From: Bacteroidota bacterium
GTDB lineage: Bacteria > Bacteroidota > Bacteroidia > Chitinophagales > LD1
NCBI GenBank assembly: GCA_028288545.1
Contig: JAQBNQ010000293.1
Span: 1 to 33,930, forward strand
Direction: 5' to 3'
DNA length: 33,930 nucleotides
Below, piece after piece: positions 7,320 to 26,228 of the stretch (position 1 is the first letter of the stretch; each line of letters begins with the position of its first letter). The position numbers and the translations under genes are program-made. The notes below the pieces were generated by a model that saw only the letters and a program-made list of their open reading frames with translations, did not search any database and was not told the DNA's origin.

Positions 7320-8315
7320 TTACCTGATCTTCGATTTAAAATTCACGTTTAAGGTTCCCCCAGATATGATGGTGGGGTTGCTAATATTAAACTCCGTTAA
7401 CTGTGGATTGTGCGGCATTCCATTTTGCTCAAAATCGCCGGTACCGCCATAAGCGCCCAGGTCGGTGCCATCATTGCCCGCACTCTTGGCAGGTGAGCCC
7501 GAAAGCAGGTTAAAGTCATAGCTATAATCAAAATAAGCGCCGCCCGAAGGGAAATTGACAAATTTAGGGTCAACGTTGGTTTGATTTACTCCATTAGGAA
7601 AGTTGTTATTGCCGCACTGGTACGAAATGTTATTACTGTAGGTAGCGCTGGCACCTGTAGGATTTGCGCGGTAAAATATATTGTTATAAATATAGAAGTT
7701 GAAATCATTGCCAAACGCATTTCCGCTGTACAGGAATATATTGTTCATTATATAGTGATAGTTGCTTTGGCAATTACCAAAGTTTGAAATGGGACCGTTA
7801 AAAAGGTTGTTGCGTATTAAATGGCCGGCCTGGCTGCAAGCACCTGAAATATTGTCCCCTGTATACAAAAAAACATTGCCATCAATTAGCCATGCATTGC
7901 ATAAACTCTGATCGATAGAAATCTGGTAAGAAAGCTTACAAAGAACAATTTCAATACTGTCAATATGCTGATTCATAGTATGGATCATGTATAGGTCCAG
8001 CCCAATGATCTTTGTACCCAGCGAGCCGGTATAAAGATTAATATAGTCAACCGTTGATTTAAGTGGTGCCTGCTTTTGAGGGTTATGCCCCGTACCTATT
8101 AACACTAATCTTTTGGAGACCGAAAAGGTATTATAGTTGAACGGAGACCCATGTATCAAAATAGTATCACCATCGTTAGCTGCAGACTGAGCAGCAGCAA
8201 AAGTGGTAAACTGTCCCGGGCTGTTGGTATTATTACTTACTGTGCGGATAGCAGCATAAGTTGATACGGTGGCCAGGAAAATAAGTAAGGCGGAAAATAG
8301 AACTTTCGTTTTCAT
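7320..8315 (-). CDS. Secreted right-handed beta-helix-like protein of unknown function
   Basis: 331 aa with a signal peptide, MKTKVLFSALLIFLATVSTYAA. It has an A..DGDTILIHG motif and a periodic Asn ladder (IRNNLFNG, IMNNIFLY, IYNNIFYR, YSNNISYQ) typical of parallel beta-helix folds. Its stop lies 31 nt before the start of the giant cargo gene, on the same strand. Confidence 0.7.
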   Translation of the reverse strand: MKTKVLFSALLIFLATVSTYAAIRTVSNNTNSPGQFTTFAAAQSAANDGDTILIHGSPFNYNTFSVSKRLVLIGTGHNPQKQAPLKSTVDYINLYTGSLGTKIIGLDLYMIHTMNQHIDSIEIVLCKLSYQISIDQSLCNAWLIDGNVFLYTGDNISGACSQAGHLIRNNLFNGPISNFGNCQSNYHYIMNNIFLYSGNAFGNDFNFYIYNNIFYRANPTGASATYSNNISYQCGNNNFPNGVNQTNVDPKFVNFPSGGAYFDYSYDFNLLSGSPAKSAGNDGTDLGAYGGTGDFEQNGMPHNPQLTEFNISNPTIISGGTLNVNFKSKIR

Positions 8316-8772
8316 CGTTTTGTTTTTTGAACGTTAAGTATTATTAAGTGAGTAATATATGGGAGCATAATATACTTTGATAACCGATATAAGTCAACCC
8401 CTTAAATAAACAGGGTTGAAACGTATTTGGTAAAAAGGCAGATTAGCTCCCAATTTTTAAGTCCGATACAAAACTAGGCTCTTGAAATTTGAAAAACGCG
8501 TTTTAGTAAGAAAGTGGCACTTTTGGGCGCGGTGGGCGGATGCGGTACTTTTTAAAAGACGCCTTATAAGGATGTTGGGATTTGCAGGGGATATTGCGTA
8601 AAGCAGATTGATTTGGGCTTATCCCTTCGAGTCGTGCTATCGTTTCAAGTCCTCATTCGCAAAGCCTTATTGAGGGCTTTATGTTCCATCACTTACACGA
8701 ACATATATGAAGCCTCTTAGTCCTTTTGGCAAGCTTGATTAAATAAAAAAACCATACTTTGCCTTTGAAAAT

Positions 8773-10164
8773 ATGAAAGGTTACCAAGCAGCAAGGAAAG
8801 AACTTGATAGCAGTCTGAGGTTAAAAGCAGAAGCCGAGGATTTACTTAAGCTATTTCTCACGGCACCCAAAACTGAATTTTACTGCAGTGAAATTCAGTT
8901 TTCATTAGACTTAATGAGAAAAAGGGGGGAATTAAAAGACTGGAGTACAGATATTCTAAAGTTAGAGGGTGGTGACGCCTTCTTTTGCCTCTGGTTTGAA
9001 GAATTAAGGGCTGATTTTTCCTCCGGCTTATCCGAAAACTATAATACCCTTACTTCTTTTTTTGATACGGTCGAAAACAATTTTAGAAGGAAAAACCTCC
9101 AAGGTATCTTGCGTCCATTACTCCTTAAATTTCAGCAATGGTTAATGGTAACATTAAATCAAGACCATGGATGTGACTTCTGTGACTATGCTCTGCAGAT
9201 TAAGAGAGATGACCCAGGTAGAAGCGCCTATAACTTCGCTCGAAATTTTGGAAGAGCGTTACAATTTTTGAATATTTCACCGGAGAGGTTATACCTTATA
9301 ATATCACACCTTAAAGAAGAAATCTATACTGGCGGGAATACCGATGATCATGACATAAAAGAAGGCATTAAAGACTTGGCTAAATCACAACCCAAACAAG
9401 GGGAGGAACTTCTTATATATTTTAGCTCAGTTAAAGCCGGTGACTATGAATCCTTAGTATTTGCGGGCCTTATTGAAAATGGAGGGAGCCATTATCTAGA
9501 TAAAAGTTCAACTAAATACCTACAAAACGACCATCGTACCCTCGCCAATGCACTTTCTTGTCTAAGAATCCTTGACAACGATTTAGTTAGAGGCATTTTC
9601 GCAATAATTGACACCCTCAACCTAAGAGAACCAGATGTTGCTAAATATATCCCGCATATTTATCACAATATTATAGAAGCCAATTCTATAACAGATGAAT
9701 TGAAATCAATAGCATTTCAATCACTTATCGGCTTATGGAGTCTTTCAAAAGATATAAAGCCTAATATACTTTATCAATTAAATTTCATTAGAGATTTCAA
9801 GGAACTAAAATGCTCCTTTCTAATTAAGGCTTTTCAGGATCCTGATATTGAGATAAGTTCAATTAACGGAATGTTCGGTATCGCAGAAGTTGCTACTCCT
9901 GATTTTTTCTATCAGTTAATTGAGGTAATCGCTTATAGGATGAAACTGGGATTCGATACTAGCGCTATCGAAGATATCTTGTATGAATTGATTCAACAGG
10001 ATGAGGGGAAGTTCTCAGAAACTTTAATACGCTTGATGATTCATGACAATGGCTTTGTCCGTTATGCAGGTAGCAGGTTATACACGCATCAACATTCGGG
10101 CGTAAAAAGTTCCTTTTTAAGTATGACATTTTGCAACTTACAGAAGTGGATCAACTTAAATTAA
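8773..10164 (+). CDS. Hypothetical cytoplasmic all-helical protein (island ORF A)
   Basis: 463 aa with an ATG start. There is no signal peptide and no TM segment. The sequence is rich in Leu/Glu/Lys/Ile helical stretches, and I recognise no catalytic motif. Codon usage is AT-rich, unlike the flanks. Confidence 0.75.
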   Translation: MKGYQAARKELDSSLRLKAEAEDLLKLFLTAPKTEFYCSEIQFSLDLMRKRGELKDWSTDILKLEGGDAFFCLWFEELRADFSSGLSENYNTLTSFFDTVENNFRRKNLQGILRPLLLKFQQWLMVTLNQDHGCDFCDYALQIKRDDPGRSAYNFARNFGRALQFLNISPERLYLIISHLKEEIYTGGNTDDHDIKEGIKDLAKSQPKQGEELLIYFSSVKAGDYESLVFAGLIENGGSHYLDKSSTKYLQNDHRTLANALSCLRILDNDLVRGIFAIIDTLNLREPDVAKYIPHIYHNIIEANSITDELKSIAFQSLIGLWSLSKDIKPNILYQLNFIRDFKELKCSFLIKAFQDPDIEISSINGMFGIAEVATPDFFYQLIEVIAYRMKLGFDTSAIEDILYELIQQDEGKFSETLIRLMIHDNGFVRYAGSRLYTHQHSGVKSSFLSMTFCNLQKWINLN

Positions 10165-10748
10165 TTATAGCTGCGCTTACCGAAATGAATCAGCCGGCTG
10201 ATACTTTGCCAAACATTTTGAAATTATTAGATTCAAATTCAGACAAGGTAGTTGCTTATTTGATCCAGAGACTAAAAGAAATGATTGAATCGTTCTTTGA
10301 TAGCGTTTATAAGGAAATGGAAGCAGCCTATGTGCACAAAATCTTCAAAAATAACACCGCGATTAAAAAAGTTAAATCGTACCACGAAGAATTTATTAAA
10401 CATATCGAGCAGAAAGAAGCACTAAATGAATTGAATGCTTGGCAAAATGAGCACACCTTGGTGAGGTACTATACGGAACTTTATCAAAGAAAACAAAATC
10501 GTGTTATTGGGGATGCAATGAATAAAGGTTCCTCCTTTTTGCAACATAGCAATTCCGTAACCTTAGCTAAAAGTGGGGGCTGGAAAATGGAAGGTCGGGA
10601 TGAAATAACACAGCTAAACAACATTAGTAGTTCTTCACTTTTTCCAAGAACTTATTTTATAAAACCGGAATACTTTAATCAAAGTGTTACAAGTAAGTAC
10701 TTAGTTAATTGGGCGCAAATTTTCAAATGGGAGCAAATTCAATTATAG
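10131..10748 (+). CDS. Hypothetical helical protein (island ORF B), possibly the frameshifted C-terminal part of ORF A
   Basis: The ORF-track start at 10131 is TTG and overlaps ORF A by 34 nt. The first in-frame ATG is at 10185 (MNQPADT...), 20 nt after the ORF A stop. The frame is open back to 10074. No motif recognised. Confidence 0.55.
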   Translation: MQLTEVDQLKLIIAALTEMNQPADTLPNILKLLDSNSDKVVAYLIQRLKEMIESFFDSVYKEMEAAYVHKIFKNNTAIKKVKSYHEEFIKHIEQKEALNELNAWQNEHTLVRYYTELYQRKQNRVIGDAMNKGSSFLQHSNSVTLAKSGGWKMEGRDEITQLNNISSSSLFPRTYFIKPEYFNQSVTSKYLVNWAQIFKWEQIQL

Positions 10749-12442
10749 TCAAAGAGTATCTTGAAAGTTTAAAAGAAGATAAGGAACTTGATTATTTGTT
10801 CCCCCTTCTCCTTTCCTTAATGGGCTTTGAGGTTATTACCACCGCAAAAGAATCGAAGGGGCAATCTCAATACGGGAAAGATGTAGTTGCCATCGGGAAA
10901 GATGAAAATGGAAAGACATGGAGGTATTATTTTCAAATAAAGGCAGGAGACGCAAAAGATATTAATGACAGAACATTTAATGATGAAAATGGGATAAGAT
11001 CATCCCTACTTCAAGCTAAGGATACTCTTTTAATTGATTCCACTCGCGTTGACTTTTCCTCTTTACCAATAAAGATAATCCTAGTACACCCCGGAATTCT
11101 AAAAGAAAACTTCCGTCCAGTATTTGAAGGATTTATTAAACAAAATTTCAAAGAGGATGAATTTGAACATTGGAACATATACAAATTGATCTCATTATTC
11201 GAGGAGTATTTATTCAATGAATGTCTTTTAATTGATAACGAGTCCTACAAACTCTTTAAAAAGTTACTGGTTTTATTGGACGCACCCGGGAGCGATTTTA
11301 AAGATATCCATTTACTTCTTGATCATCTTATAAAAAATCATGCCGCTCTTTCCGGTAGAAAATTTCAGAAGTTCTTTGCAAGTTTCCATTTGATCGCAGC
11401 AGTAATATTACAGTTTTCAAAAGAAGCTAATAATTTACACGCTGCACGAGAATGTTTAACCGTATTGTTATTAAAAGTCTGGGCATGGATATTAAGATCG
11501 AAATTAGAGACAGATAAATTTGCGTTAGGAGAGTTTCGAAAACTGCTCAAAATACACTACGATTGCCTTGATCTTTATTTTCACAAGACCTTTTCTATAG
11601 CGGTGTCAAAAAATGGTCTCTTCGCTGAACGTGCTGGTATGTATGAAACCATTGGCTATCCCGTTCGGAGTTTCGAATACCTCAGTTACCTCCTTTATTA
11701 TTTTCACGCAATGCCATATTCATTTGACTTCGAAAGCGCTGTTCCTGGCTTGGATATACCAAAACTTAGAAACACTCAAAAAGAAGCACTAATTTCTCTA
11801 ATATCTTCTAATGATGGTTGTTCAAGACCGCTGATTGACTACCATTCCATTCCAATAGTTATTTTATTTCTATTCTTTGCAGAGGAAGAAATACTAGAAA
11901 CGCATTTAGCGTTTATTGCAAACTACTTAATAAATGTTCTAGATAATATTCTTCTAGTCAAATCAGTAGCTAAAAGGTATCCCATGCTAGGAACCAATCT
12001 AAAAATCCTTGCTGAATATAGCGTCGAAGAAAAAAAGCCAAATGAATATCTTGACAAAACCAGCATTCTTATTCCTACCGTATTTGAACTTATAAGCGTT
12101 ATAAACCACGAGTATGTATATGGTCGTTATAAAAACAAGTTTGATAAAGAGCTAAGTTTACAGATTCCACACCCACTTAAAGGAATGGATTTTGAACAAA
12201 AGATATTTGACGGCTATGCAGATAACGCGTACTATGTTGAAGCATTTGTAGAAGGTTTCCCTGCAACATTAAAGGAGTATCGCGATAAGCTTATAAACTC
12301 AAAAGCAGATCAAATCGCATTTAGAACAGATGCAGCGGGTTTCCCCTTTCTACGTTTATTGGCACATCTTTATTATAAAAACGAGCTTACTCCTTTTGAA
12401 TGGCGGAAATGGTTGAAAAATTCAGGTAGTGCGAATACTTAA
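10727..12442 (+). CDS. Mrr-like PD-(D/E)xK nuclease domain fused to a ~420-aa helical domain of unknown function (island ORF C)
   Basis: The N-terminus aligns by eye to the Mrr_cat restriction-endonuclease core. The elements are helix ELDYLFPLLLSLMGFEV, strand YGKDVVAIG (Asp codon 10880-10882), strand WRYYFQIKAG (Q-x-K, Lys codon 10940-10942), then IKIILVHPG. I prefer the ATG at 10727 over the TTG at 10709 used by the ORF track. The gene overlaps ORF B by 22 nt. Confidence 0.8.
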   Translation: MGANSIIVKEYLESLKEDKELDYLFPLLLSLMGFEVITTAKESKGQSQYGKDVVAIGKDENGKTWRYYFQIKAGDAKDINDRTFNDENGIRSSLLQAKDTLLIDSTRVDFSSLPIKIILVHPGILKENFRPVFEGFIKQNFKEDEFEHWNIYKLISLFEEYLFNECLLIDNESYKLFKKLLVLLDAPGSDFKDIHLLLDHLIKNHAALSGRKFQKFFASFHLIAAVILQFSKEANNLHAARECLTVLLLKVWAWILRSKLETDKFALGEFRKLLKIHYDCLDLYFHKTFSIAVSKNGLFAERAGMYETIGYPVRSFEYLSYLLYYFHAMPYSFDFESAVPGLDIPKLRNTQKEALISLISSNDGCSRPLIDYHSIPIVILFLFFAEEEILETHLAFIANYLINVLDNILLVKSVAKRYPMLGTNLKILAEYSVEEKKPNEYLDKTSILIPTVFELISVINHEYVYGRYKNKFDKELSLQIPHPLKGMDFEQKIFDGYADNAYYVEAFVEGFPATLKEYRDKLINSKADQIAFRTDAAGFPFLRLLAHLYYKNELTPFEWRKWLKNSGSANT

Positions 12443-12538
12443 TTCATATACTCTAACTATGTCCTCCAACGTAAGAACAGGCTAAAATTTGATCCACTTC
12501 CTTATTCCATTGATTGTATCAATAGAACGAACCTGACC

Positions 12539-12952
12539 ATGCCAAACTTCACACACAACTTTTGCGACCCTTTAAAACCCGATGTAATTGAGCTTGGACC
12601 CATAGCGCCTGACAAAATAGTTGGGTTGTTCAATTCCTTTCCTTTTGATGAGCATTTAAAGAAAATGAATGCTGCGAAAAAAGAAGAAATTTGTTATTCC
12701 CCTTCGCTGGCCTTTGAAAATGTACAGACAAAGAGTGGGATATGTATCTCTGTTTTGGGAGAAACTGCGGTAACAGAATATATGATTTTTTACAAGCGCC
12801 CGCGCAATAAAAAATCTTTCTTCGGCCTTGTTGAAAAACTTGTCCCCGATTATTGCACTGACATTACGGTTGAAGAAAAAGAAAAGGCAGTTGCAGCACT
12901 GGAAGCTTTGATAAAAGGTGATACCGATTATTTGGAGAACGCCATTAAGTAA
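12539..12952 (+). CDS. Small hypothetical protein with an acidic C-terminal helix (island ORF D)
   Basis: 137 aa with an ATG start, on the same strand and with the same AT-rich composition as ORFs A-C, 96 nt downstream of ORF C. No signal peptide and no recognised motif. The C-terminus reads EEKEKAVAALEALIKGDTDYLENAIK. Confidence 0.65.
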   Translation: MPNFTHNFCDPLKPDVIELGPIAPDKIVGLFNSFPFDEHLKKMNAAKKEEICYSPSLAFENVQTKSGICISVLGETAVTEYMIFYKRPRNKKSFFGLVEKLVPDYCTDITVEEKEKAVAALEALIKGDTDYLENAIK

Positions 12953-13022
12953 TATTAAAGCTAAACTGCTATTATCTTTTTTGTCAGTACATTTTTTGCC
13001 GCATACCTCCTTGAAATGGGTA

Positions 13023-13045
13023 TTTCTACTTAGAAAATACACTTT
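13023..13045. repeat. Copy 1 of a ~23-nt palindrome-containing motif (tttcta-ct-tagaaaatacacttt)
   Basis: The inverted half-sites tttcta and tagaaa are separated by 2 nt and followed by a(ta)cacttt. It matches copy 2 at 13128-13150 apart from two 2-nt indels and one substitution in the spacer. Confidence 0.6.
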
Positions 13046-13127
13046 AATTTAAAACAAATATGTACGTCTGCAACAAAATGAAAACCAATTCATTGCATTT
13101 TTTATTCAATATGTGCGTTTCTATTTG

Positions 13128-13150
13128 TTTCTATTAATAGAAAACACTTT
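13128..13150. repeat. Copy 2 of the motif (tttcta-ttaa-tagaaaacacttt), containing a perfect 16-nt palindrome
   Basis: tttctattaatagaaa (13128-13143) is its own reverse complement. An extra direct half-site, gtttctatt, sits at 13117-13125, immediately upstream of gtttctatt at 13127-13135. Confidence 0.6.
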
Positions 13151-13178
13151 TTGGTCAAAACAACACAACAGGCATAAA

Positions 13179-13213
13179 AAAACCTCCGCCTAATTTGATC
13201 AGATGGAGGTTTT
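13179..13213 (-). terminator. Rho-independent terminator of the superoxide dismutase gene
   Basis: aaaacctcc (13179-13187) pairs perfectly with ggaggtttt (13205-13213) around a 17-nt loop. On the minus strand the stem runs straight into a T-tract (the plus-strand A-run 13176-13182, part of which lies inside the stem). It lies 31 nt past the sod stop. Confidence 0.7.
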
Positions 13214-13243
13214 ATATCCCTTTTGCAAGATTAAAAGGAGGAC

Positions 13244-13849
13244 TTACTTCGCCGCTGCCAGGTTGGTATTTACTTCTTCCCAATTAATTACATTGTAAAA
13301 AGCGCCGATGTAATCAGGTCTGCGGTTTTGATAGTTGAGGTAGTAAGCATGTTCCCACACATCAAGTCCCAATATTGGAGTGCCTTTAACCTCAGCAACA
13401 TCCATTAGCGGATTATCCTGGTTAGGAGTTGAAGCAATGACCAGTTTTCCGCCACTTGCAATAAGCCATGCCCAGCCTGAACCAAAACGGGTAGTAGCTG
13501 CTTTTGTAAATTCCTCTTTAAACTTATCGTAACTACCGAAAGAACTGTTGATAGCCTCAGCAACTTTGCCGGATGGAGCGCCACCAGCGTTTGGGGCCAT
13601 TATTTTCCAAAAGAAAGAATGGTTCCAGTGCCCGCCTCCGTTATTACGAACAGCCGGTGCAAGTTTTGAGATGTTAGCCAGTATCTCTTCAAGCGATTTG
13701 TTTTCCCACTCGGTACCTGCCACTGCGTTATTTAGATTAGTAACATAAGCCTGGTGATGTTTGTCGTGGTGAATTTCCATTGTCTTTGCGTCAATATGCG
13801 GTTCAAGCGCATTAAACGCATAAGGTAGTGCTGGTAATGTAAATGCCAT
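13244..13849 (-). CDS. sodA: Fe/Mn-family superoxide dismutase
   Basis: 201 aa. The motifs [10 protein letters not shown] and DVWEHAYYL (the metal-ligand D-x-W-E-H signature) are present. Fe versus Mn specificity cannot be told from the sequence. Confidence 0.95.
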
Positions 13850-13956
13850 AGTATTTAGGTTTTAGATTTAAAAATGATGTATTAGAAACAGAGAACGAAT
13901 GTAAAAAGTTTTAAGAAGTTGTGGGGTTCGGCTACGCTCACCCTGACGAGCCATTA

Positions 13957-14400
13957 TCAACCATTTCTCTTCTCTCTAAAAAATTCGGTTAACAGACTGC
14001 CGCATTCGTTTTCCATTATGCCAATGGTTAGCTCCGTTTTTGGGTGTAGTACCTTATTGCTGGTAAGGCTATAGCCGGCTTTAAGGTCGCGGGCTCCGTA
14101 TACCAGGCGCGATATGCGGGCCCATTTTAAGGCGGCAGCGCACATCAGGCAGGGTTCCAGGGTTACGTACAGGGTACATTCCTCCAAAAACTTGCTGCCA
14201 AGATAATTGGAAGCGGCAGTTATGGCTATCATTTCGGCGTGGGCCGTAACGTCTTTCAGTCTTTCGGTTTGGTTATAGCCTTTGCCTATAATGCGGTTAT
14301 TGCATATTACAATGGCCCCCACCGGCACTTCATCCTCTTCATAAGCGTAAACAGCTTCTTTCAAAGCCATTTTCATATAATATTCGTCGGTAAAAAGCAT
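13957..14400 (-). CDS. tadA: tRNA-specific adenosine deaminase
   Basis: 147 aa. The CMP/dCMP-type zinc-binding motifs HAEMIAI and PCLMCAAAL are present, and the size is typical of TadA. Confidence 0.9.
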   Translation of the reverse strand: MLFTDEYYMKMALKEAVYAYEEDEVPVGAIVICNNRIIGKGYNQTERLKDVTAHAEMIAITAASNYLGSKFLEECTLYVTLEPCLMCAAALKWARISRLVYGARDLKAGYSLTSNKVLHPKTELTIGIMENECGSLLTEFFREKRNG

Positions 14401-14402
14401 CG

Positions 14403-16407: not shown

Positions 16408-16419
16408 ATTTTTACAGGA

Positions 16420-18096: not shown

Positions 18097-21000
18097 TTAG
18101 TAGTTCGATGTATCAGCTGGTCTAACGGTTCCAAACCATTTCAAAGTTCTTTGGCCAAGGCCTGGTGCTTCAATATGGAAAAGATAAATGCCGCTGGCAA
18201 TTGGAATTCCCTTATCGTTTTTCATATCCCAGTCAACGGTGCTCTCAACATTTACAGATTGTATATCGGTACCATCACTGATCTCCACCTTTTTATTGGT
18301 AGCAGGGTCCACACCGATAGAACGGTTAAGTACGCGGATGATAGTTCCATCCAATGAATAAATGGTAATAGTACAATTGTTAGGCAGGTTGGTTACCTTA
18401 ACCGTGCTGGTGTTTGCATCCGGCTCGTAAGCAGAATATGCCAGGTATGGATTGGGTACAATACGTATCAGGTCAAGTGCACTCTTTGCAACAGTAACGT
18501 TGTTTTCGGTTGCGCCCAGGCCTTTGGTACTAAACATATAACGTGGCAGCGAATCAACACCCGGTGATGGATCAACAGCTAACATGCGGGTGTATGGTTT
18601 ATCAACTCTAAGCCTAACGGTTACTTCAGCAGGTGGAATATACGCGACATTACTCGCATCGGTGCCAAAGGTATAGCCAGGGGTCAGAACAGGGATACAG
18701 GTCCACATCAGGTCACGATAAACAGGATATTGAGATTTCGCAAGGTGCTCCTGCACAGTAGTAATACTATCATAACCGGATAGCAAAACATGTTGCGCAG
18801 AATCGCCACCATCATATTTAGTATCCCAAACGTAAATGAAGTGTTTTCCACCAAAGTAAGGTATCTGCGGTATTGTAGCCGAAGGATAAATAACGGGGTC
18901 GTAAACATCCTGGGTAGGATTCCATAACATATCCGCGCCGTTCTGATCCGGTACTTCTGAAGCTTCACCGAAACCGATATTTAAACGCTCACCGGTTTCA
19001 ACATTAACTGCATAACCGGGGAACCATGAACGGCCAATATCACTAGGGTCTGTTACCAGGTAATCCTTAGTTACCGGATTATTCCAGTTTTTGGAGTACG
19101 ACATTCTTATCTGCCCCTTCAACGCTCCGTCGCCGGCTACCGGGTTACTGTTGGAACTGCTTCGTGGGAAAATATCATTACCAAGCGTAGCACGTTCGTC
19201 CTCACCCGTTTCAAAAACCACGCAGCGCGTCCATTTGCTCTTATCAGGAGTAATTACAATATCAACACTGGCAACTTTATCAAGCGTATTTTGGGGTGGA
19301 GCATATAAAAACGAATTCTTGCCGCCGTATTGTAACCACTTAAATCCCGGACCGTAAACATAAGGAGGCGCAGGCGCCACGGCATCCCTGTGTGAGTAAT
19401 TGGCAGTTAAGCAATACGGAGCCCATGTTCCATTCAATATATTATCGAAAATATGATTGGGGTCATCAAACAGGCCATGAGGGTAAGTTGGCGGGTTACC
19501 CGGGCCAACCCAATACCAGTTGTCGTCAAATACAGTTGCAAAAGCCCTGCTGCTTGACTGGCTACCCGGATCATAATCCTGTATACCTGAACGGATCCAG
19601 TTGGTAACAGTATTGGTTCCCTGATCCTGCACAAACGAAAGCCATGGTTGGGTAGGATTTTGATAGGTAATACTTGACTTGGTAACATCCGTTCCATAAA
19701 TAAACCGCGGTGGCGAGTTTGGATCAATGTAACCAGCTGGCAAAGTGTCAACCGGTGCCGGGGTACCTAGTTTTATAGAGAATCCGTAATCATTCCTGTT
19801 ACTGTCAACTATTTGTTGCTGATATGGTCTGTCAAGGTGCCTTTCGCTGGCTATTACCACGTTGTTGGTAACATCAGTTAACTTCCAGTAAGTTCTGCTA
19901 TCCAAAGGTAAATACGCTGTGTCAGTTGCACCGCTATCTACCAAAAACTGCAGCACAAAATCAGCTTCCTTTAAGTTAACCGGATCGGTGATCTGGAAAC
20001 CAATAGGATCAAGACCTTTCACATAAGTCAAAGTATCTTTAAAAGCTGTAAAGCCCGAATTGAGAATATCATTGATAGTTTCGGGCGTAAGGTCAAGATT
20101 ATTACCACCGTTACCCTGTCCTTCAATACGCACTACATTCACGCCATCGCCCCATTGAGAATGCAGGATGGTTCCAACATTCCGAGGATCCGGAATATGC
20201 GGCACCGCATCATACACTTTAAAGTTGTTACGGCCTTGCAAATACTCAATCAACTGGCCTTTTGCCTGTGGATTTTCCTGGTCGTAATGTTGAAAGTCAT
20301 TATAAGCATAAGCCACGGCCGTGTAGTAATAGGTCATGTGGTTAATCAAGCGGTTATCCTTACCGGTTGCAAAAAGATCGGTGGTTACCTTAAACGAATT
20401 AGTGATTCCGGCATCGGCACCGTCCACTTCTAATGTTGGTATGAACAGGTTAAGCGTAGGATCTTTAATAAAGTTGATCAGTTTGGTTATTCCGTTTTTA
20501 ACATCGCACTGGGCAACTAATAGTGCCTTTGTAGGATCTTCCAAATCACTCGCCGAAACGTTAGGACTTTTTAGCTGGTACAATTTGTACCCTTCAAAAG
20601 TATAGGTTGAATCGCCATGGCCTGCAAGTATTTCATGTACTGATTCTTCCGTCTTTCCATCCACCTGTTTGTAGCCTTCACCAATGTTGTTGGATATAGG
20701 AGAAATATTAAGCAGGTTAATGATCAGTTGATTATCCAATTCGCGAATTTGTAAAGTTGGAGCATCCGGACCATCCAATAATTTAAAACAAGTATTGAAC
20801 AAGGCCTGGGCTTCATCATCGGCAGGACCAATGGTGGTATTAAAGTCAGGACATAATCCCACGCCGTTTGTACCTGTTGGACGAACAAAAACCACCCCTA
20901 CTGTAACAAACTGCGAAACACCCGTTGTTAGTGTAAATGGTCCTGAAGACTGAACAAATCTTCTGTCATCGGCAGGTAACATGCTTGAAACGCTGCACTC

Positions 21001-22344
21001 ACTCCAGGCAGCACCATCGCTTGGGTTACCAGGGAAAATGTACTTAGTGGGAGTTGTACCACCGTAGCCGGTATTGCCCGCTGTAAACGGTGTACCATCG
21101 TTCCAGAAACCAGTTTGGTAGTTCCTGTACTGCGGAGCCGTTAAGGGGTCACTTTTTGCAAAAGCAGCTCCGTTAGTAAAATATACAAATGATGACATGC
21201 CTAACTGAGCACCACTGTCGCTCAAAGGTCCCTCAAAAAAGTCAACACCCACTATCGGTAATTGAGCCAGGTAACCGTGTTCGTTTACACAATCGTTATC
21301 AGGTGATGAACCATTATAACACACACCAAGACTTCTTGAAGTATCGCAACCCACGCGGTCGTTAAATGCACAACCCAGATCCGGATCCACCCATTGCGAA
21401 ATATAGGTTTGAAATAATTTATTAGCCGATTTGTTGACGATCTCATAATTATAGAAAGTCATGTTATTAATCTCATCAGTTGTTTGAAATGCAAACGCCA
21501 GAGAGTTTACCTGTACCCCAATACTTTGTCCGTTTGATTCGGTATGGATATTACCTACATCATTAAAAACCCAGAAAACCATTTGATCGGCATAAGCCTG
21601 CGATTCACCGTTGCGGCATGGAATAACGGGATAGTCACCTTTCAAAGGATCGTATACACCATCGTGGTTCACATCTTTAAAAGGAGCCAGGTTATCAGTA
21701 ACATTATAAGTTTGGCCAATAAGCGTTGGGTCGCCGGCAAGATATTGATTGCCTTTAGCCGGCCATGCCAATACATCTTTAGGGATATCAGCCAAAGTTA
21801 CGCCGGTTGGATTTTGCAAATAAGCAGACTGTGCTTTTGCAATGTCAGCACCATAAACGTTAAAGTGACGATCGTATTCACTACAGGTTGAGGGGCTAAT
21901 GTTTCCACTGGCATCCAATGGTCCTGGCCAGTAATCGTTACCCGAAGCGCGGTAACGCTGTGCTGCACATTTCAGGTTACCACCCGCATCAAGACCGGAT
22001 ATCCATATTGCACCGGCAAAAATTGCACATAAAGGATGCGTTCCATCACCTTTAGGCACCTCATACTTCGGTTCGCTGAAATTCCACCATGTGTCACCAC
22101 CGGCAAGCAAACGGGCACGTACGTTATTAATATCTATATCAAACTGGGCCGTTGACGCAACACAATTTCCCGCATCAGTTTTAAATGAAATGTGCGAATT
22201 GGTTCGGGTAGGCTTATTGACATCCTCCTTTGCGTTGGCCACAACACTTGCCAGTAAAAGGCACAGGCAAAGCGTAATGTTTAATGAAATCGTTTTCATG
22301 GTTTTCATTTTAATTCCTTTAGTATTTTCTCTTAGGTTCTTCAC
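18097..22344 (-). CDS. Large secreted protein of unknown function with a C-terminal T9SS-CTD-like / FlgD-Ig-like beta-sandwich
   Basis: The ORF is 1415 aa. The signal peptide MKTISLNITLCLCLLLASVVANA suggests a start at ~22299-22308. The tail (nt 18100-18474) reads IVPNPY...CTITIYSLDGTIIRVL...DWDMKNDKGIPIASGIYLFHIEAPG...LKWFGTV. I saw no C25-peptidase (PorU-type) motifs. Confidence 0.8.
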   Translation of the reverse strand: MKNLRENTKGIKMKTMKTISLNITLCLCLLLASVVANAKEDVNKPTRTNSHISFKTDAGNCVASTAQFDIDINNVRARLLAGGDTWWNFSEPKYEVPKGDGTHPLCAIFAGAIWISGLDAGGNLKCAAQRYRASGNDYWPGPLDASGNISPSTCSEYDRHFNVYGADIAKAQSAYLQNPTGVTLADIPKDVLAWPAKGNQYLAGDPTLIGQTYNVTDNLAPFKDVNHDGVYDPLKGDYPVIPCRNGESQAYADQMVFWVFNDVGNIHTESNGQSIGVQVNSLAFAFQTTDEINNMTFYNYEIVNKSANKLFQTYISQWVDPDLGCAFNDRVGCDTSRSLGVCYNGSSPDNDCVNEHGYLAQLPIVGVDFFEGPLSDSGAQLGMSSFVYFTNGAAFAKSDPLTAPQYRNYQTGFWNDGTPFTAGNTGYGGTTPTKYIFPGNPSDGAAWSECSVSSMLPADDRRFVQSSGPFTLTTGVSQFVTVGVVFVRPTGTNGVGLCPDFNTTIGPADDEAQALFNTCFKLLDGPDAPTLQIRELDNQLIINLLNISPISNNIGEGYKQVDGKTEESVHEILAGHGDSTYTFEGYKLYQLKSPNVSASDLEDPTKALLVAQCDVKNGITKLINFIKDPTLNLFIPTLEVDGADAGITNSFKVTTDLFATGKDNRLINHMTYYYTAVAYAYNDFQHYDQENPQAKGQLIEYLQGRNNFKVYDAVPHIPDPRNVGTILHSQWGDGVNVVRIEGQGNGGNNLDLTPETINDILNSGFTAFKDTLTYVKGLDPIGFQITDPVNLKEADFVLQFLVDSGATDTAYLPLDSRTYWKLTDVTNNVVIASERHLDRPYQQQIVDSNRNDYGFSIKLGTPAPVDTLPAGYIDPNSPPRFIYGTDVTKSSITYQNPTQPWLSFVQDQGTNTVTNWIRSGIQDYDPGSQSSSRAFATVFDDNWYWVGPGNPPTYPHGLFDDPNHIFDNILNGTWAPYCLTANYSHRDAVAPAPPYVYGPGFKWLQYGGKNSFLYAPPQNTLDKVASVDIVITPDKSKWTRCVVFETGEDERATLGNDIFPRSSSNSNPVAGDGALKGQIRMSYSKNWNNPVTKDYLVTDPSDIGRSWFPGYAVNVETGERLNIGFGEASEVPDQNGADMLWNPTQDVYDPVIYPSATIPQIPYFGGKHFIYVWDTKYDGGDSAQHVLLSGYDSITTVQEHLAKSQYPVYRDLMWTCIPVLTPGYTFGTDASNVAYIPPAEVTVRLRVDKPYTRMLAVDPSPGVDSLPRYMFSTKGLGATENNVTVAKSALDLIRIVPNPYLAYSAYEPDANTSTVKVTNLPNNCTITIYSLDGTIIRVLNRSIGVDPATNKKVEISDGTDIQSVNVESTVDWDMKNDKGIPIASGIYLFHIEAPGLGQRTLKWFGTVRPADTSNY

Positions 22345-22365
22345 TTCAACTACTGTTTTAATATT

Positions 22366-25300
22366 TTAGAAACTGAATACTGCACCCAAATAAATACGGC
22401 GCGGTAAACTGTAATTACCTGGTCTGTTTATGTAAGCAGCGTACTGATCTTTATATGCCTGTGGGTTAATAGCTCCCTGTATTTGTGGTAAGCTGGACGG
22501 GTCATTAATATAACCATCGGAGTTAGGCACACCGGTGTAACGGTAAACCGCCACCACGTTTTGAGTGTTCAACAGGTTTTGTATTTGCAGGTATATTTCA
22601 AGATCAAGCCTGCGCTTGTTGTCAACCTTGTCGTTCTTTTTGCCCACCATAAATGAGAAGTCTTTCCAAACTCTCATGTTCACCCTAAAGTACCATGGCA
22701 ATCTTGAACCGTTGATAGAACCTTTTGTAACAGGTTTGCTGGCCTGGCCTTGTAAGCCTTCAGGTGTTGCACCGGTCTGTTCTGTATAAGGTGTTCCTGA
22801 TCTTCCGGTAAGTTGCAAACTGACACCTGCGTCAGCCAATATCTGCCTGTTCTTAATAGTAGGTCCGTTGTAATCGCTGCCCGAGCCGTAGCTATAGCTT
22901 AAGTTCAGGTTAACCATATGGCGCGAATCGTAATTTAAAGGGTTAATGGTACGGAAGTTTGGATTGTTTGATGTTACCAAACTTAACTGCGTTGTAGGAT
23001 CGGAACCGGTACCATCTGCAAACTGCATGGTGTAGTTAGCCTTTAACGTAAAGTTAGCAGTACGGCGCATATCAAAATCCAATGTAAATCCTTTGGTTGT
23101 ACCAAAGTCAACGTTGCCATAAGTCAGGTAATCTTTAGGATACGAGTTGACGATCTTAACTACCTGTATCTGGTCTCTGAATTCGCGGTAGAAAGCGGAG
23201 ATGGTGAAGGCGGCGGAGTTACTTACTCTTTGCTTAAAGCCTAATTCATAGTCAATAGTTTTTTGTGGCTTCAGGTTAGGGTTATTAAGGATGCCGCCAA
23301 TATTGTCAACAAAGAACAGGTATTGAGTAGGGTCCATTGCAACCTGTGCAGATGGTGGTCTTTGCGCTAAGATGTCGTAGTGAGCAAAGAACAAAGCACG
23401 GTCGGTAAGGTTAAATGAAAACTGCAAACGAGGCATTACAATCAACTGCGGTTTGTACGATTCAAAAGTTCCGCTTGGATCAAAGTTATCGGGCTTCTTA
23501 ACGTCCTCATTCGGGTTTTTCAGGTAAGGCTGGATAACACCAGTGCTTGAAAGTTTAGCAACGGCAGTACCGCTTGGTAATTCGTTACCGTATTTATCAT
23601 ACCATGTTCCACCGTTACGGTAACCTGCGATTGACTGCGGTGATTTGCTATTGTCAACATACACAGCAAAATTATCCCCGATATCAGAAGGGTGAGTAAC
23701 GTTAGTTGATCCGAGAGCAGTTACTTCTCCCTTAGTATAAATAGGATACAGAGAGTACGGATCCTTCAATACAGATTGGTTAGCATCAAACCTATCGAAA
23801 CGGACTCCTACGTTAAACGTAAGGTCTTTAAAATAGAACCTGTCGGAAATATAAGCGGCTGTATAAATTGGTCTGAAAGCCGGAATAGCGCGTATCAGGT
23901 TTCCATCAGCATCTTTTTTTGTAAAGAAGTCATTAAATGAAGGCTGATTCTTTAATACGTTGCCATAAATATCATACCCTTTGTAGAATACGATTTTGGA
24001 ACCATCCTTATTCAGGTCATCCGGTGCAAACATTTTGATATTCATTTGGGTTGGGCTCAATTCGTCAACATTCAAAAAGTCTGTTCCGCCAACTGCAAGT
24101 CCTAAAGACTTTCTCAAATTCTTATCAAAGGTACTTTGCAAGGTAGGGTCGGCACTTCTGTTAAATAAAATGGTATCAGTGCTTACAAAAGCAGGTCTGT
24201 TAGGATCGTTCCATGCGTAGTTTGATCCGTTAATTCTGAAGATAGGATTGTTCCTGTCAACATTAGTAAACTGAAGGTTGGTGATATCGCGGGCACGTTG
24301 CCAGATACTCAGTGGGCTTACCTGGTAAGATCTTTCAATTCTTTGTTCATATTCCACACCAAACTCAAACGAGTGCTTGTTACGACTTGGCGCACCTGGT
24401 TTTAAGATATCAAAAGCACCTTCTAAACGAACACGGTATTGGTCGTTATTGCTGGTGTTACCATAACCGTTAAAGGTACGGCCGGTATTAAACCAAATGT
24501 TATTTACAATGTTTGAACGCTGTCCGTTAACCAAAGCCTGGTTTTGCTGAATCTGGTTAATGTTAGATGTGAAGTTTGTATTGTTATCGCCATACACCTC
24601 ATAAGTTCCGTTGGCATCAGGCGTAGCACCAAGCAACTCATAATATTGTTGCGTAAACCTTGTACTTGTGGGGTTGATATTTCCCGGGGTAAAGGCAATA
24701 GCTGTATCCTGGTATCCCTGTTGTTTAAAGCCTGTGTAAATTTTGTTACCAATAAGGAAGGTATCAAAACTGAATACCGGAGATTTCTTTACATTGAATT
24801 TTCCGATGTAACCATACTCAAACGGATTGAATCCGTTGTTCTCGTTCTCAAATTTTACAGAGTACTTTTCGTAATCTGCCTGTATAGAGTAGTAAGCATT
24901 TTGGAATGCAGAAGCTTTTCTCTTTTTACCTGCTTTCTCATCTTCTTCAGACTGCTTGCTTTGAATGTTGTGCGTAAAACGTCCGTACACTCTCCAATCC
25001 AATTCATTATATAAAGGATTGTTTACCGAGTTAAATAAGGTATACTGTTCTACCCAGTCGTGGTACTTTCTGTCAGTTATTGATCCCCCAAAAGATAAAG
25101 TGAAGTTATCAGCCGGGCGAATATCCAAACGTGCATTTCCTCTAAAGTTCTGTTCAACCACATTAGGTTTAGCCTGTTGCTTGAACATATCGGCCATAGT
25201 AACATTTTCGGTAGCCAGGTTAAACCCTTGTGCAGTTTGCTTCTTTACAAGCGGAAACTGGTTCAGTGAGTCTAACTTAGCAGGGCGTACTTGCCAGATA

Positions 25301-26166
25301 CCAATAGCAGAAGGATTTGGATCTTTTTGACGCAAATATTCAAAAGCGGCGAAGAAACCGATGATGGTTTTCTTTGATTTTTTCAATTTCCAGATAGGAC
25401 CTGTAAGGTTTCCGTTTATAAGGTTATAGCCATACGCATCAAGGCCCTGAGTTGTTTGAAACTCAACACCGCCGTGGAAATCGCTGGAAGGTCCTTTTGA
25501 AGTGATGTTAACGATACCACCTGTTACGTCGCCGTATTTGGCAGGGATACCACCTGTAATTACCTGTAACTGTTCGATAGATGAAGCCGGCAAGGTTGGT
25601 ACCCCGGTTACTTTTACACCATCTACATAATATTGAGTGCCCTCGCTACGTCCTCCTTTAATATTAAGACCTCCGCCCTGATCGGACTGAAAGACACCTG
25701 CCGTGGTGGCCGCGATATCGCTGATATTTTTGGTAGACATAGTGGCAATTTCATCGGCAGTAACCGTATTTTGCGATGAGGTTTTGCCCGGATCGATAAG
25801 CGGAACGCGGTATGAAGTGATCTCCACCTCTTTCAGTTCCTTTGAAGAAACCTTCATTTTGGCGTCAATAAAAGTTGACTTGTCGGAGTTAACGATAACC
25901 CCCTGGGTTACCTGGGTAGCAAGCCCTGTGTACGAAAACTGTACATTATACTTACCCGGCGTAAGCGGTTTAATGGAGTAGTTTCCATCCAAATCGGTTT
26001 GTACACCCCTTCCGGTGCTTATACCTTTAGTATCAACTAATACAACGTTGGCAAACGGTATTCCTTCACCGTTGTCGTCAACTACCTTTCCGGAAATATC
26101 CCCGTTTTGCGCCTGTAAAGCGAAAGCCGAGATAAGAAAACTAAGCAGAGTAAGTATTTTCTTCAT
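22366..26166 (-). CDS. Oversized TonB-dependent-receptor-like outer-membrane protein (CarboxypepD_reg domain, plug and a ~1000-aa barrel)
   Basis: The signal peptide is MKKILTLLSFLISAFALQAQ from the ATG at 26166. The ORF-track start at 26223 is a TTG lying inside promoter-like boxes. The CarboxypepD_reg region is ISGKVVDDNGEGIPFANVVLVD...GKYNVQF. The plug region is LNIKGGRSEGTQYYVDGVKV...IEQLQVITGGIPAKYGDVTGGIVNITSKG. The C-terminal strand is YLGAVFSF. Confidence 0.85.
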   Translation of the reverse strand: MKKILTLLSFLISAFALQAQNGDISGKVVDDNGEGIPFANVVLVDTKGISTGRGVQTDLDGNYSIKPLTPGKYNVQFSYTGLATQVTQGVIVNSDKSTFIDAKMKVSSKELKEVEITSYRVPLIDPGKTSSQNTVTADEIATMSTKNISDIAATTAGVFQSDQGGGLNIKGGRSEGTQYYVDGVKVTGVPTLPASSIEQLQVITGGIPAKYGDVTGGIVNITSKGPSSDFHGGVEFQTTQGLDAYGYNLINGNLTGPIWKLKKSKKTIIGFFAAFEYLRQKDPNPSAIGIWQVRPAKLDSLNQFPLVKKQTAQGFNLATENVTMADMFKQQAKPNVVEQNFRGNARLDIRPADNFTLSFGGSITDRKYHDWVEQYTLFNSVNNPLYNELDWRVYGRFTHNIQSKQSEEDEKAGKKRKASAFQNAYYSIQADYEKYSVKFENENNGFNPFEYGYIGKFNVKKSPVFSFDTFLIGNKIYTGFKQQGYQDTAIAFTPGNINPTSTRFTQQYYELLGATPDANGTYEVYGDNNTNFTSNINQIQQNQALVNGQRSNIVNNIWFNTGRTFNGYGNTSNNDQYRVRLEGAFDILKPGAPSRNKHSFEFGVEYEQRIERSYQVSPLSIWQRARDITNLQFTNVDRNNPIFRINGSNYAWNDPNRPAFVSTDTILFNRSADPTLQSTFDKNLRKSLGLAVGGTDFLNVDELSPTQMNIKMFAPDDLNKDGSKIVFYKGYDIYGNVLKNQPSFNDFFTKKDADGNLIRAIPAFRPIYTAAYISDRFYFKDLTFNVGVRFDRFDANQSVLKDPYSLYPIYTKGEVTALGSTNVTHPSDIGDNFAVYVDNSKSPQSIAGYRNGGTWYDKYGNELPSGTAVAKLSSTGVIQPYLKNPNEDVKKPDNFDPSGTFESYKPQLIVMPRLQFSFNLTDRALFFAHYDILAQRPPSAQVAMDPTQYLFFVDNIGGILNNPNLKPQKTIDYELGFKQRVSNSAAFTISAFYREFRDQIQVVKIVNSYPKDYLTYGNVDFGTTKGFTLDFDMRRTANFTLKANYTMQFADGTGSDPTTQLSLVTSNNPNFRTINPLNYDSRHMVNLNLSYSYGSGSDYNGPTIKNRQILADAGVSLQLTGRSGTPYTEQTGATPEGLQGQASKPVTKGSINGSRLPWYFRVNMRVWKDFSFMVGKKNDKVDNKRRLDLEIYLQIQNLLNTQNVVAVYRYTGVPNSDGYINDPSSLPQIQGAINPQAYKDQYAAYINRPGNYSLPRRIYLGAVFSF

Positions 26167-26201
26167 ACGCAATTTATATGGGCCTTTAAACCAAAAGCGG
26201 T

Positions 26202-26228
26202 CAAAAATAGATTTTTTTGGCAAACATA
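26202..26228 (-). promoter_or_regulatory. Two matches to the Bacteroidota -7 promoter box TAnnTTTG, upstream of the outer-membrane operon
   Basis: On the minus strand these read tatttttg (26209-26202) and tatgtttg (26228-26221), with 35 and 54 nt between the box and the ATG at 26166. I found no convincing -33 TTG element. Confidence 0.35.

What the first reader, a model, noticed from the sequence alone, without database searches (positions are those of the whole stretch)
10727..11160. Mrr_cat-like PD-(D/E)xK core with a Q-x-K variant, fused to a large unknown helical domain
The order of elements matches the Mrr/type IV restriction-endonuclease catalytic core. These are helix ELDYLFPLLLSLMGFEV, strand YGKDVVAIG, hairpin KDENGKT, strand WRYYFQIKAG, then IKIILVHPG. 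The canonical core, as I recall it, runs FE.LV..LL..GYEV...GDGGIDI.A....-....V.VQCK. As in Mrr itself, the (D/E)-x-K position is Q-x-K. The following ~420 residues (nt ~11160-12439) have no motif I recognise and could be a sensor or oligomerisation domain. A nuclease head on a long helical body with no partner NTPase is an uncommon architecture.
Basis: partly seen in the sequence, partly recalled or inferred. Interest (0 to 1): 0.65.

Follow-up and report, generated by a model that had tools for sequence, protein, structure and literature searches.

The report
Olokun defence nuclease OloB, Q-x-K variant
The flagged gene is OloB, the nuclease subunit of the already described two-gene anti-phage system Olokun. 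Its head is a divergent Mrr-type restriction-endonuclease domain, and its partner gene OloA lies directly upstream, broken here by a one-base frameshift.

Summary

The PD-(D/E)xK / Mrr-like reading is supported, mostly by indirect evidence:
- The AlphaFold2 model has the alpha-beta-beta-beta-alpha-beta order, with D52 before beta2 and Q70-x-K72 on beta3.
- Foldseek hits viral "Mrr domain / restriction endonuclease" models at E 2.4e-4 to 9e-3.
- A few homologues touch Pfam Mrr_cat, one at the gathering score.
- D52 is kept in 223 of 223 homologues and K72 in 222 of 223.

The protein is not an orphan of unusual architecture. It matches the PADLOC OloB profile full length (E 1.5e-115). OloA lies immediately upstream and overlaps it by 22 nt, as in about 60 related Bacteroidota loci.

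Published work (bioRxiv 10.1101/2025.07.10.664194) describes OloB as a PD-(D/E)xK nuclease that forms a 2:2 complex with adaptin-like OloA and degrades some phage DNAs.

Two local points:
- Q-x-K occurs in the window and its four nearest relatives among the 120 best homologues, where the consensus is E-x-K. The position is variable across the wider family.
- The window's OloA is split by a missing base at 10089/10090, so this copy may be inactive.

Verdict: a new member of a known kind, of low to moderate interest.

The parts
8773..10164 (+). OloA, N-terminal part. This is frame 1; the homologous reading ends at about 10089, and the ORF then runs out of frame to a stop at 10162-10164.
   Evidence: PADLOC OloA PDLC03925 E 1.7e-12, residues 60-438 against profile 17-377/596. 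It is 43% identical to residues 1-452 of the intact 662-aa OloA of L001. No Pfam hit and no Walker A motif.
10089..10090 (+). Frameshift site in OloA: one base is missing relative to the two nearest relatives.
   Evidence: DNA alignment reads window CGCAT-CAACATTC against L001 CACACTTAACTTTC and L004 CGCATATAACGTTC. The protein reading switches from ...SRLYTH (frame 1) to TFGRKKFLFKYD... (frame 2). The site is not in a homopolymer run.
10092..10748 (+). OloA, C-terminal part. This is frame 2, open from 10074; the first possible start is TTG 10131 and the stop is TAG 10746-10748.
   Evidence: PADLOC OloA E 1.4e-20, residues 2-184 against profile 400-584/596. It is 61% identical to residues 445-662 of L001 OloA.
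10727..12442 (+). OloB, the nuclease subunit of Olokun (571 aa from ATG 10727). It overlaps the end of OloA by 22 nt.
   Evidence: PADLOC OloB PDLC03926 E 1.5e-115, residues 11-570 against profile 2-555/556. 357 homologues of ~565 aa, mostly Bacteroidota. AF2 model pLDDT 86.3, pTM 0.81.
10727..11236 (+). N-terminal Mrr-like PD-(D/E)xK nuclease domain (residues 1-170). Elements: alpha1 21-31, beta1 35-38, beta2 53-58, beta3 64-71, alpha2 90-99, beta4 115-120, alpha3 127-140, beta5 146-149.
   Evidence: AF2 domain model pLDDT 85.4, pTM 0.83. Foldseek BFVD gives 5 hits at E<=1e-3; the named hits in the list are restriction endonuclease or Mrr domain proteins, most of them at E 4e-3 to 9e-3. The top PDB hits are weak but mostly PD-(D/E)xK folds.
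10775..10792 (+). Invariant acidic patch E17-D18-K19-E20-L21-D22 at the N-cap of alpha1. It is a candidate source of the additional catalytic carboxylate.
   Evidence: E17 is kept in 221/223, E20 in 217/223 and D22 in 219/223 homologues (the TTG-ORF numbering used there is +6). The catalytic role is inferred, not shown.
10880..10882 (+). Asp52, the D of PD-(D/E)xK, immediately before beta2.
   Evidence: GAT. Kept in 223/223 homologues.
10934..10942 (+). Q70-I71-K72, the (D/E)-x-K position on beta3.
   Evidence: CAA ATA AAA. K is kept in 222/223. Position 70 is E in 115/120 of the best homologues and Q only in the window and its 4 nearest relatives. Across the wider family it is E139, V27, S18, T16, Q13, I5, L3, A2.
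11237..12439 (+). C-terminal, mostly alpha-helical body (residues ~171-571), with a small beta element near residues 477-506.
   Evidence: AF2 secondary structure. Foldseek against PDB gives only non-significant alpha-solenoid/TPR-like hits, E>=0.095. No Pfam hit. The published AlphaFold3 and mass-photometry work places the OloA contact on a helical domain of OloB.

Best explanation
The finding is the N-terminal domain of OloB, the effector of the two-gene anti-phage system Olokun (OloA + OloB), sitting in a small low-GC island of a Bacteroidota chromosome.

OloB has two parts. The head is a divergent Mrr-type PD-(D/E)xK nuclease, with D52 and K72 invariant, Q70 at the variable middle position, and an invariant E17/E20/D22 patch on alpha1. 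The rest is a ~400-residue helical scaffold.

By analogy with the characterised Pseudomonas system, two OloB and two OloA chains form a 2:2 complex. Adaptin-like OloA binds the helical part of OloB, and the two nuclease heads lie side by side so that they can cut both strands of invading phage DNA in a metal-dependent reaction.

What is shown here: family membership, gene order, predicted fold and the residue conservation pattern. What is inferred: catalysis by D52/K72 plus a carboxylate from alpha1, complex formation, and the DNA target.

In this window OloA is interrupted by a one-base deletion at 10089/10090. If the sequence is correct, this copy probably makes no full-length OloA and is likely to be impaired or recently inactivated.
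For: - PADLOC: OloB E 1.5e-115 over the full length. OloA is matched in two consecutive ORFs, profile positions 17-377 and 400-584.
- Gene order: in 74 related genome loci, all Bacteroidota except one Ignavibacteriales, an open frame ends within about 50 nt of the OloB start. It is usually 624-738 codons long.
- Nearest relatives: L001 and L004 carry a single 662-aa and 659-aa OloA.
- Fold: the AF2 models are confident and give alpha1-beta1-beta2-beta3-alpha2-beta4, with D52 at the start of beta2 and Q70-x-K72 at the end of beta3.
- Structure search: Foldseek against viral models finds Mrr and restriction-endonuclease proteins at E 2.4e-4 to 9e-3, probability 0.77-1.0, TM about 0.5 at best.
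- Pfam: Mrr_cat is hit by some homologues. P0228 scores 21.6 bits against a cutoff of 21 (E 2.5e-4), and others score E 0.002-0.02.
- Conservation: D52 223/223, K72 222/223.
- Literature: OloB is described as a PD-(D/E)xK nuclease. PfOlokun forms a 2:2 OloA-OloB complex of ~278 kDa, degrades T7, a phage printed 'SEC 17' in the held text, and SPO1 genomic DNA, nicks plasmid DNA, and loses the complex when the OloB active site is mutated (bioRxiv 10.1101/2025.07.10.664194).
- Frameshift: shown by the three-way DNA alignment.
- Assembly quality: other long ORFs of the window (1415, 1327 and 1285 aa) are intact, so the assembly is not indel-ridden.
Against: - The window protein itself gives no Pfam hit.
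- No PDB structure matches at E<=1e-3, by fold or by sequence.
- hhalign of the OloB N-terminal profile against the single E. coli Mrr sequence is not significant.
- Only 2 of 85 distant and 3 of 33 close homologues touch Mrr_cat.
- I could not read model coordinates, so the active-site geometry is untested.
[quoted passage not shown] That wording fits awkwardly with a nuclease at the N-terminus, and I could not see the figure.
- Defence and nuclease activity have been shown only for distant proteobacterial Olokun systems, not for this Bacteroidota clade or for a Q-x-K member.
- The frameshift could be an assembly error. The contig is the only one that carries this protein.
Confidence: 0.85

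Rival explanations
1. Stand-alone type IV (Mrr-like) restriction enzyme. The helical body would be its own sensor or oligomerisation domain, acting without any partner protein.
For: The nuclease head is Mrr-like. No NTPase is encoded nearby, and OloA has no Walker A motif and no Pfam domain. In this window the upstream partner is broken while OloB remains intact.
Against: An OloA-type gene abuts or overlaps OloB in essentially every related locus with enough upstream sequence. PADLOC recognises both genes. The purified system is an OloA-OloB complex. In the best 150 library matches the N-terminal domain appears only in the ~565-aa OloB architecture or in fragments of it.
Confidence: 0.07
2. 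Catalytically dead OloB. The E-to-Q change at the (D/E)-x-K position inactivates the nuclease, so this clade's OloB would be a pseudo-enzyme or a decaying gene.
For: E is the consensus in 115 of the 120 best homologues. The Q clade also changes neighbouring conserved residues: G73 to A, N122 to P, and D88 to N in 4 of the 5 (ATG numbering). E-to-Q substitutions are a standard way of inactivating PD-(D/E)xK enzymes (general knowledge). OloA is also damaged in this window.
Against: Q is kept in all five clade members, which are only 71-78% identical, have full-length ORFs and show dN 0.14-0.22 with saturated dS. That pattern indicates purifying selection. Family-wide the position is E, V, S, T, Q, I, L or A while D52 and K72 stay invariant, so it is not an obligatory carboxylate in OloB. 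E. coli Mrr, an active enzyme, has Q-A-K. The OloB homologues that score best against Mrr_cat are Q-x-K types.
Confidence: 0.12
3. The OloA frameshift is an assembly or sequencing artefact, and the window carries a fully intact, ordinary Olokun operon.
For: Only one base is missing and there are no other stops. Divergence of both OloA halves relative to OloB is the same as in an intact pair: dN ratios 2.8 and 1.6 against 2.75 and 1.7. There is therefore no sign of decay.
Against: The site is not a homopolymer. All other long ORFs in the 34-kb window are uninterrupted. A second locus, L013, also has a split OloA at a different place, so real disruptions do occur. The question cannot be settled without reads.
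Confidence: 0.35

Closest known systems
Olokun anti-phage system, OloB subunit (Millman et al. 2022 as cited in PMC10121019; PADLOC PDLC03926; biochemistry of Pseudomonas 'PfOlokun' in bioRxiv 10.1101/2025.07.10.664194)
   Same: Full-length collinear match to the OloB profile (E 1.5e-115). The size is the same (~565 aa), the OloA-OloB gene order is the same with overlapping ends, and there is a PD-(D/E)xK nuclease plus a helical body.
   Different: This is a Bacteroidota lineage, with only ~20-35% identity to the distant representatives in A4. It has Q instead of the subfamily's E at the (D/E)-x-K position. OloA is frameshifted in this copy. No experiment exists for this clade.
Mrr / Pfam Mrr_cat (PF04471) type IV restriction endonuclease catalytic domain
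   Same: The order of elements is the same, and the D...Q-x-K signature is as in E. coli Mrr (GIDGV...VQAKR). The Foldseek hits that carry a name are mostly Mrr-domain or restriction-endonuclease proteins. A few OloB homologues reach or approach the Mrr_cat threshold.
   Different: The window protein does not hit Mrr_cat at all. There is no winged-helix DNA-binding N-domain as in Mrr. The nuclease is N-terminal and fused to a 400-aa helical scaffold. It works with a partner protein rather than alone. Nothing indicates dependence on modified DNA.
Other defence nucleases with PD-(D/E)xK heads on regulatory partners (Hachiman HamA, MspJI, Avs3, Can2)
   Same: They appear among the weak fold matches and share the general logic of a nuclease held in check by, or assembled on, a larger scaffold.
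   Different: All matches are E>=0.02 with TM<0.45. Their partners are helicases, NTPases or sensor domains, whereas OloA has no NTPase motif.

Membership tests
Olokun OloB (PADLOC PDLC03926) | Full-length significant match to the OloB profile | tested here: met
   E 1.5e-115, 385 bits, residues 11-570 against profile 2-555/556
Olokun system | OloA gene immediately upstream on the same strand | tested here: met
   Two consecutive ORFs hit the OloA profile at positions 17-377 and 400-584. The OloA stop at 10748 overlaps the OloB start at 10727. The same arrangement is seen in related loci.
Olokun system | Both genes intact | tested here: not met
   OloA is split by a 1-nt deletion at 10089/10090 relative to L001 and L004. 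OloB is intact.
Olokun system | Protects against phage; OloAB complex cleaves DNA | not testable with these tools
   Known only for a distant Pseudomonas system
PD-(D/E)xK nuclease superfamily | alpha-beta-beta-beta-alpha-beta core | tested here: met
   The AF2 domain model (pLDDT 85.4) gives H21-31, E35-38, E53-58, E64-71, H90-99, E115-120. The full-length model shows the same order.
PD-(D/E)xK nuclease superfamily | Asp at the start of beta2 and x-K on beta3, conserved among homologues | tested here: met
   D52 223/223, K72 222/223.
PD-(D/E)xK nuclease superfamily | Acidic residue at the (D/E) of (D/E)-x-K | tested here: not met
   The window has Q70. Family-wide the position is E139, V27, S18, T16, Q13, I5, L3, A2. 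Q-x-K is a known functional variant, as in E. coli Mrr.
PD-(D/E)xK nuclease superfamily | Significant structural similarity to known members | tested here: inconclusive
   BFVD gives 5 hits at E<=1e-3 (one named 'Restriction endonuclease') plus Mrr-domain, Mrr-like and restriction-endonuclease hits at E 4e-3 to 9e-3; these targets are predicted, not solved, structures. The best nuclease hit in PDB is MspJI at E 0.027, TM 0.43.
PD-(D/E)xK nuclease superfamily | Active-site geometry (D, Q/E and K around a metal site) | not testable with these tools
   Model coordinates could not be read, so no superposition was done.
Pfam Mrr_cat (PF04471) | Score at or above the gathering cutoff (21 bits) | tested here: not met
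   The window protein has no hit at E<=1 over the full length or E<=10 for the N-terminal domain. Among homologues, P0228 scores 21.6 bits, others 15-19 bits; 3/33 and 2/85 members hit.
Pfam Mrr_cat (PF04471) | Profile-level similarity to E. coli Mrr | tested here: not met
   hhalign of OloB N-terminal profiles against the single Mrr sequence gives probability 0.1. This is a weak test because the template is a single sequence.
'Nuclease-NTPase' defence systems | Partner protein with NTPase/helicase motifs | tested here: not met
   OloA (the window's and L001's) has no Pfam hit and no Walker A pattern. The preprint itself calls OloA adaptin-like.

The most novel reading that the evidence does not exclude
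In OloB the classical middle carboxylate of PD-(D/E)xK may be dispensable. That position is E, Q, V, S, T or I across the family, while D52, K72 and an E17/E20/D22 patch on alpha1 are invariant. The catalytic acid may therefore have moved to alpha1. Alongside this, OloA looks modular. Its N-terminal half evolves fastest (dN 0.38-0.49 against 0.14-0.18 for OloB). That half is missing altogether from a natural ~325-aa OloA in gut Bacteroidales. It is also the part separated by the frameshift here. It could be an exchangeable phage-sensing module, with the C-terminal part as the OloB-binding core. On this reading the split OloA of the window might even retain function as two polypeptides.
Probability: 0.2. 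Interest if true: 0.45.

Novelty: new member of a known kind. Interest (0 to 1): 0.25.

Why it matters
The result turns an apparent orphan nuclease of unusual architecture into an annotated defence system. OloB/Olokun is widespread in Bacteroidota: 74 genome loci here and 381 clusters at 50% identity. It is still labelled 'hypothetical' in the source databases and has no Pfam family.

Three by-products may be useful to people working on Olokun's mechanism, which is still poorly understood:
- the residue map of the active site, with D and K invariant, the middle position free, and an invariant acidic patch on alpha1;
- the existence of a natural half-size OloA;
- a gradient of evolutionary rate along OloA.

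For this genome, the frameshift suggests the system may be non-functional.

Tried and rejected
- Pfam and NCBIfam scans of OloB, both OloA pieces, the 137-aa downstream ORF and the intact L001 OloA found nothing meaningful.
- Sequence searches against PDB with the protein, the N-terminal profile and a diverse full-length profile found nothing.
- Foldseek of the full-length model against PDB gave only non-significant alpha-solenoid hits dominated by the helical body. I therefore modelled the N-terminal domain separately.
- hhalign of OloB N-terminal profiles against the single E. coli Mrr sequence was not significant.
- dN/dS could not be computed because dS is saturated; only dN values are usable.
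- The promoter and terminator scan of the island gave no more than chance, and the sigma-70 consensus does not suit Bacteroidota anyway.
- There is no tRNA in the window to mark an integration site.
- The 137-aa ORF downstream (12539..12952) is not linked to Olokun in any of the 79 fetched loci, so I did not include it in the system.
- The bioRxiv version of Millman et al. (10.1101/2022.05.11.491447) does not mention Olokun in its text.
- My early guess that 18097..26223 encoded rpoB/rpoC was wrong. One ORF is a TonB-dependent-receptor-like protein and the other has no Pfam hit.
Full report
**1. What is there**

The window has an ORF on the + strand from TTG 10709, or more likely ATG 10727, to the stop at 12440-12442. 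Homologues start MxSNNIIV, so I count from ATG 10727. That gives D52, Q70 and K72; the ORF lister's numbering is +6.

**2. What it is**

Pfam and NCBIfam give nothing for this protein. The PADLOC library matches it end to end to OloB (PDLC03926, E 1.5e-115, residues 11-570 against profile 2-555/556). It also matches the two ORFs directly upstream to consecutive parts of OloA: 8773..10164 to profile 17-377, and 10131..10748 to profile 400-584 of 596.

Olokun is a two-gene anti-phage system. PMC10121019 attributes it to Millman et al. 2022. A 2025 preprint (10.1101/2025.07.10.664194) lists it among systems with PD-(D/E)xK nucleases and reports the following for a Pseudomonas Olokun:
- The complex is ~278 kDa, a 2:2 OloA-OloB assembly.
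- OloA is 'adaptin-like' and contacts a helical domain of OloB.
- The two nuclease domains are predicted to lie side by side.
- The complex degrades T7, a phage printed 'SEC 17' in the held text, and SPO1 genomic DNA, and it nicks plasmid DNA.
- The complex is lost when the OloB active site is mutated.

**3. Is the head really a PD-(D/E)xK / Mrr-like nuclease?**

*Fold.* AlphaFold2 with a 49-sequence alignment gives a confident full-length model (pLDDT 86.3, pTM 0.81). A separate model of residues 1-170 has pLDDT 85.4. The order of elements is alpha1 21-31, beta1 35-38, beta2 53-58, beta3 64-71, alpha2 90-99, beta4 115-120, alpha3 127-140, beta5 146-149. D52 sits directly before beta2 and Q70-x-K72 sits at the end of beta3. 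This is the canonical placement.

*Structure searches.* Foldseek of the full model against PDB is dominated by insignificant alpha-solenoid hits from the helical body. The domain model gives no PDB hit at E<=1e-3. Its top list is nevertheless mostly restriction-endonuclease-fold proteins: RPB5, MspJI (E 0.027, probability 0.90, TM 0.43), EndoMS/NucS, Avs3, EcoO109I, HamA, Can2 and MUS81. Against predicted viral structures it gives five hits at E 2.4e-4 to 7.5e-4 (probability about 1, TM about 0.5 for the best). Hits that carry names are 'Restriction endonuclease', 'Restriction endonuclease type IV Mrr domain-containing protein' and 'Mrr-like domain-containing protein'; most of these lie at E 4e-3 to 9e-3.

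*Sequence profiles.* The window protein does not hit Mrr_cat, but some homologues do:
- 3 of 33 close homologues hit it, best E 4.5e-4.
- P0228 scores 21.6 bits against a cutoff of 21 (residues 16-89 against profile 7-73/115).
- P0163, P0208 and two others score E 0.002-0.02.
- 2 of 85 distant members hit it at E<=0.01, and it is the only nuclease family that appears.

hhalign against the single E. coli Mrr sequence was not significant.

Taken together, the domain is a divergent Mrr-type PD-(D/E)xK fold. Fold prediction, a sparse sequence signal and the literature support that reading. No significant profile hit of the window protein itself supports it, and I did not check the geometry.

**4. 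The Q-x-K**

Among the 120 best homologues the motif is G-K-D...Y-F-E-x-K-G. E occupies the middle position in 115. Q occurs only in the window protein and its four nearest relatives (P0002-P0005, 71-75% identical to it). Those five also share A for G at the next-but-one position and HPG for HNG, and four of them share N for D at position 88.

With distant representatives added (223 full-length sequences), D52 is kept in 223/223 and K72 in 222/223. The middle position is E139, V27, S18, T16, Q13, I5, L3, A2. E17, E20 and D22, at the start of alpha1, are near-invariant. The middle carboxylate is therefore not obligatory in this family, and Q has arisen in more than one OloB lineage.

The Q clade is under purifying selection: full-length ORFs, dN 0.14-0.22 and saturated dS. 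I consider a dead enzyme unlikely (about 0.1). A plausible but untested reading is that an alpha1 carboxylate completes the metal site.

**5. The partner and the frameshift**

In the two nearest relatives OloA is a single ORF of 662 aa (L001) and 659 aa (L004) that overlaps the start of OloB. In the window the reading switches from ...GSRLYTH to TFGRKKFLFKYD.... A three-way DNA alignment shows one base missing at 10089/10090, outside any homopolymer.

| Segment | Identity, window vs L001 | dN, window vs L001 | dN, L001 vs L004 (both intact) |
|---|---|---|---|
| OloA N-terminal part | 43% | 0.49 | 0.38 |
| OloA C-terminal part | 61% | 0.28 | 0.24 |
| OloB | 75% | 0.18 | 0.14 |

The gradient is the same in the intact pair, so the window's OloA shows no extra decay. 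The frameshift is either recent or an assembly error. All other long ORFs in the window are intact, which argues mildly for a real mutation. OloA has no Pfam domain and no Walker A motif, so 'nuclease-NTPase' is not an apt label for this pair.

**6. Distribution and context**

The N-terminal domain finds 381 clusters (50% identity) at E<=1e-3. In the best 150 it occurs only at the N-terminus of ~550-590-aa proteins or in fragments of them.

A scan of species-representative genomes found 74 loci, all Bacteroidota apart from one Ignavibacteriales MAG. In most of them a 624-738-codon open frame ends at the OloB start. In about 17 gut Bacteroidales loci the upstream gene is only 324-335 codons and corresponds to the C-terminal half of long OloA.

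The window's operon lies in a low-GC stretch (0.35-0.37 against 0.42-0.46). That stretch sits between a 331-aa ORF without family hits and sodA, tadA and ruvC, in a chromosome with type IX secretion and TonB-receptor genes.

**7. Verdict**

The nuclease interpretation is supported at family and fold level. The 'no partner' and 'uncommon architecture' claims are refuted. The locus is a new Bacteroidota member of the known Olokun system, carrying a clade-specific Q-x-K and a possibly inactivating OloA frameshift. Interest is low to moderate.

Noticed in passing
window 10089-10090 (OloA, 8773..10748): OloA is split into a 463-aa ORF and a 205-aa ORF by a single missing base relative to the two nearest relatives. 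Neither half shows extra divergence, so this is a recent mutation or an assembly error.
   Followed up: yes
L048-L066 and L071 (e.g. L057:4034-5005): About 17 gut Bacteroidales loci (Prevotella, Muribaculaceae, Alistipes, Odoribacter and others) carry a natural half-size OloA of 324-335 codons. It aligns with residues ~335-652 of the long OloA, so the N-terminal half is absent.
   Followed up: partly
L013:2991-5002: A Draconibacterium MAG also has OloA in two ORFs (214 + 456 aa, overlapping by 4 nt), split at a different place from the window. I did not determine whether this is a frameshift or a natural two-gene form.
   Followed up: no
window 8773..10748 compared with L001 and L004: There is a rate gradient along the operon: the OloA N-terminal half evolves fastest (dN 0.38-0.49), then the OloA C-terminal part (0.24-0.28), then OloB (0.14-0.22). 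This is consistent with a fast-evolving sensing or target-contact module in OloA.
   Followed up: partly
window ~8300-13200: A low-GC island (0.35-0.37 against 0.42-0.46 in the flanks) holds the Olokun genes and the 137-aa ORF. There is no tRNA in the window, and no integrase was recognised among the ORFs I scanned. The boundaries are not defined.
   Followed up: partly
window 12539..12952 (+): A 137-aa ORF downstream of OloB has no credible family hit (only chance-level Cas7f/Csy3 matches, E 0.006-0.1). It is not found next to Olokun in any of the 79 fetched loci.
   Followed up: partly
L001:3469-5977 and 12278-17728: The nearest relative's Olokun sits in a typical defence island, with an HNH_2/ScoMcrA-like gene, DUF2779, an Eco57I/N6_Mtase-type enzyme and a DNA methylase. 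The window's copy has no such neighbours.
   Followed up: no
window 18097..22344 (-): A 1415-aa ORF has no Pfam hit at E<=1e-5. It lies next to a 1285-aa TonB-dependent-receptor-like protein and a PorV-like gene.
   Followed up: no
window 10709-10735: The upstream in-frame TTG (10709) is followed by GGCGCAAAT, which nearly repeats the GGAGCAAAT after the ATG at 10727. This is probably coincidence, but it makes automatic start calling ambiguous.
   Followed up: no
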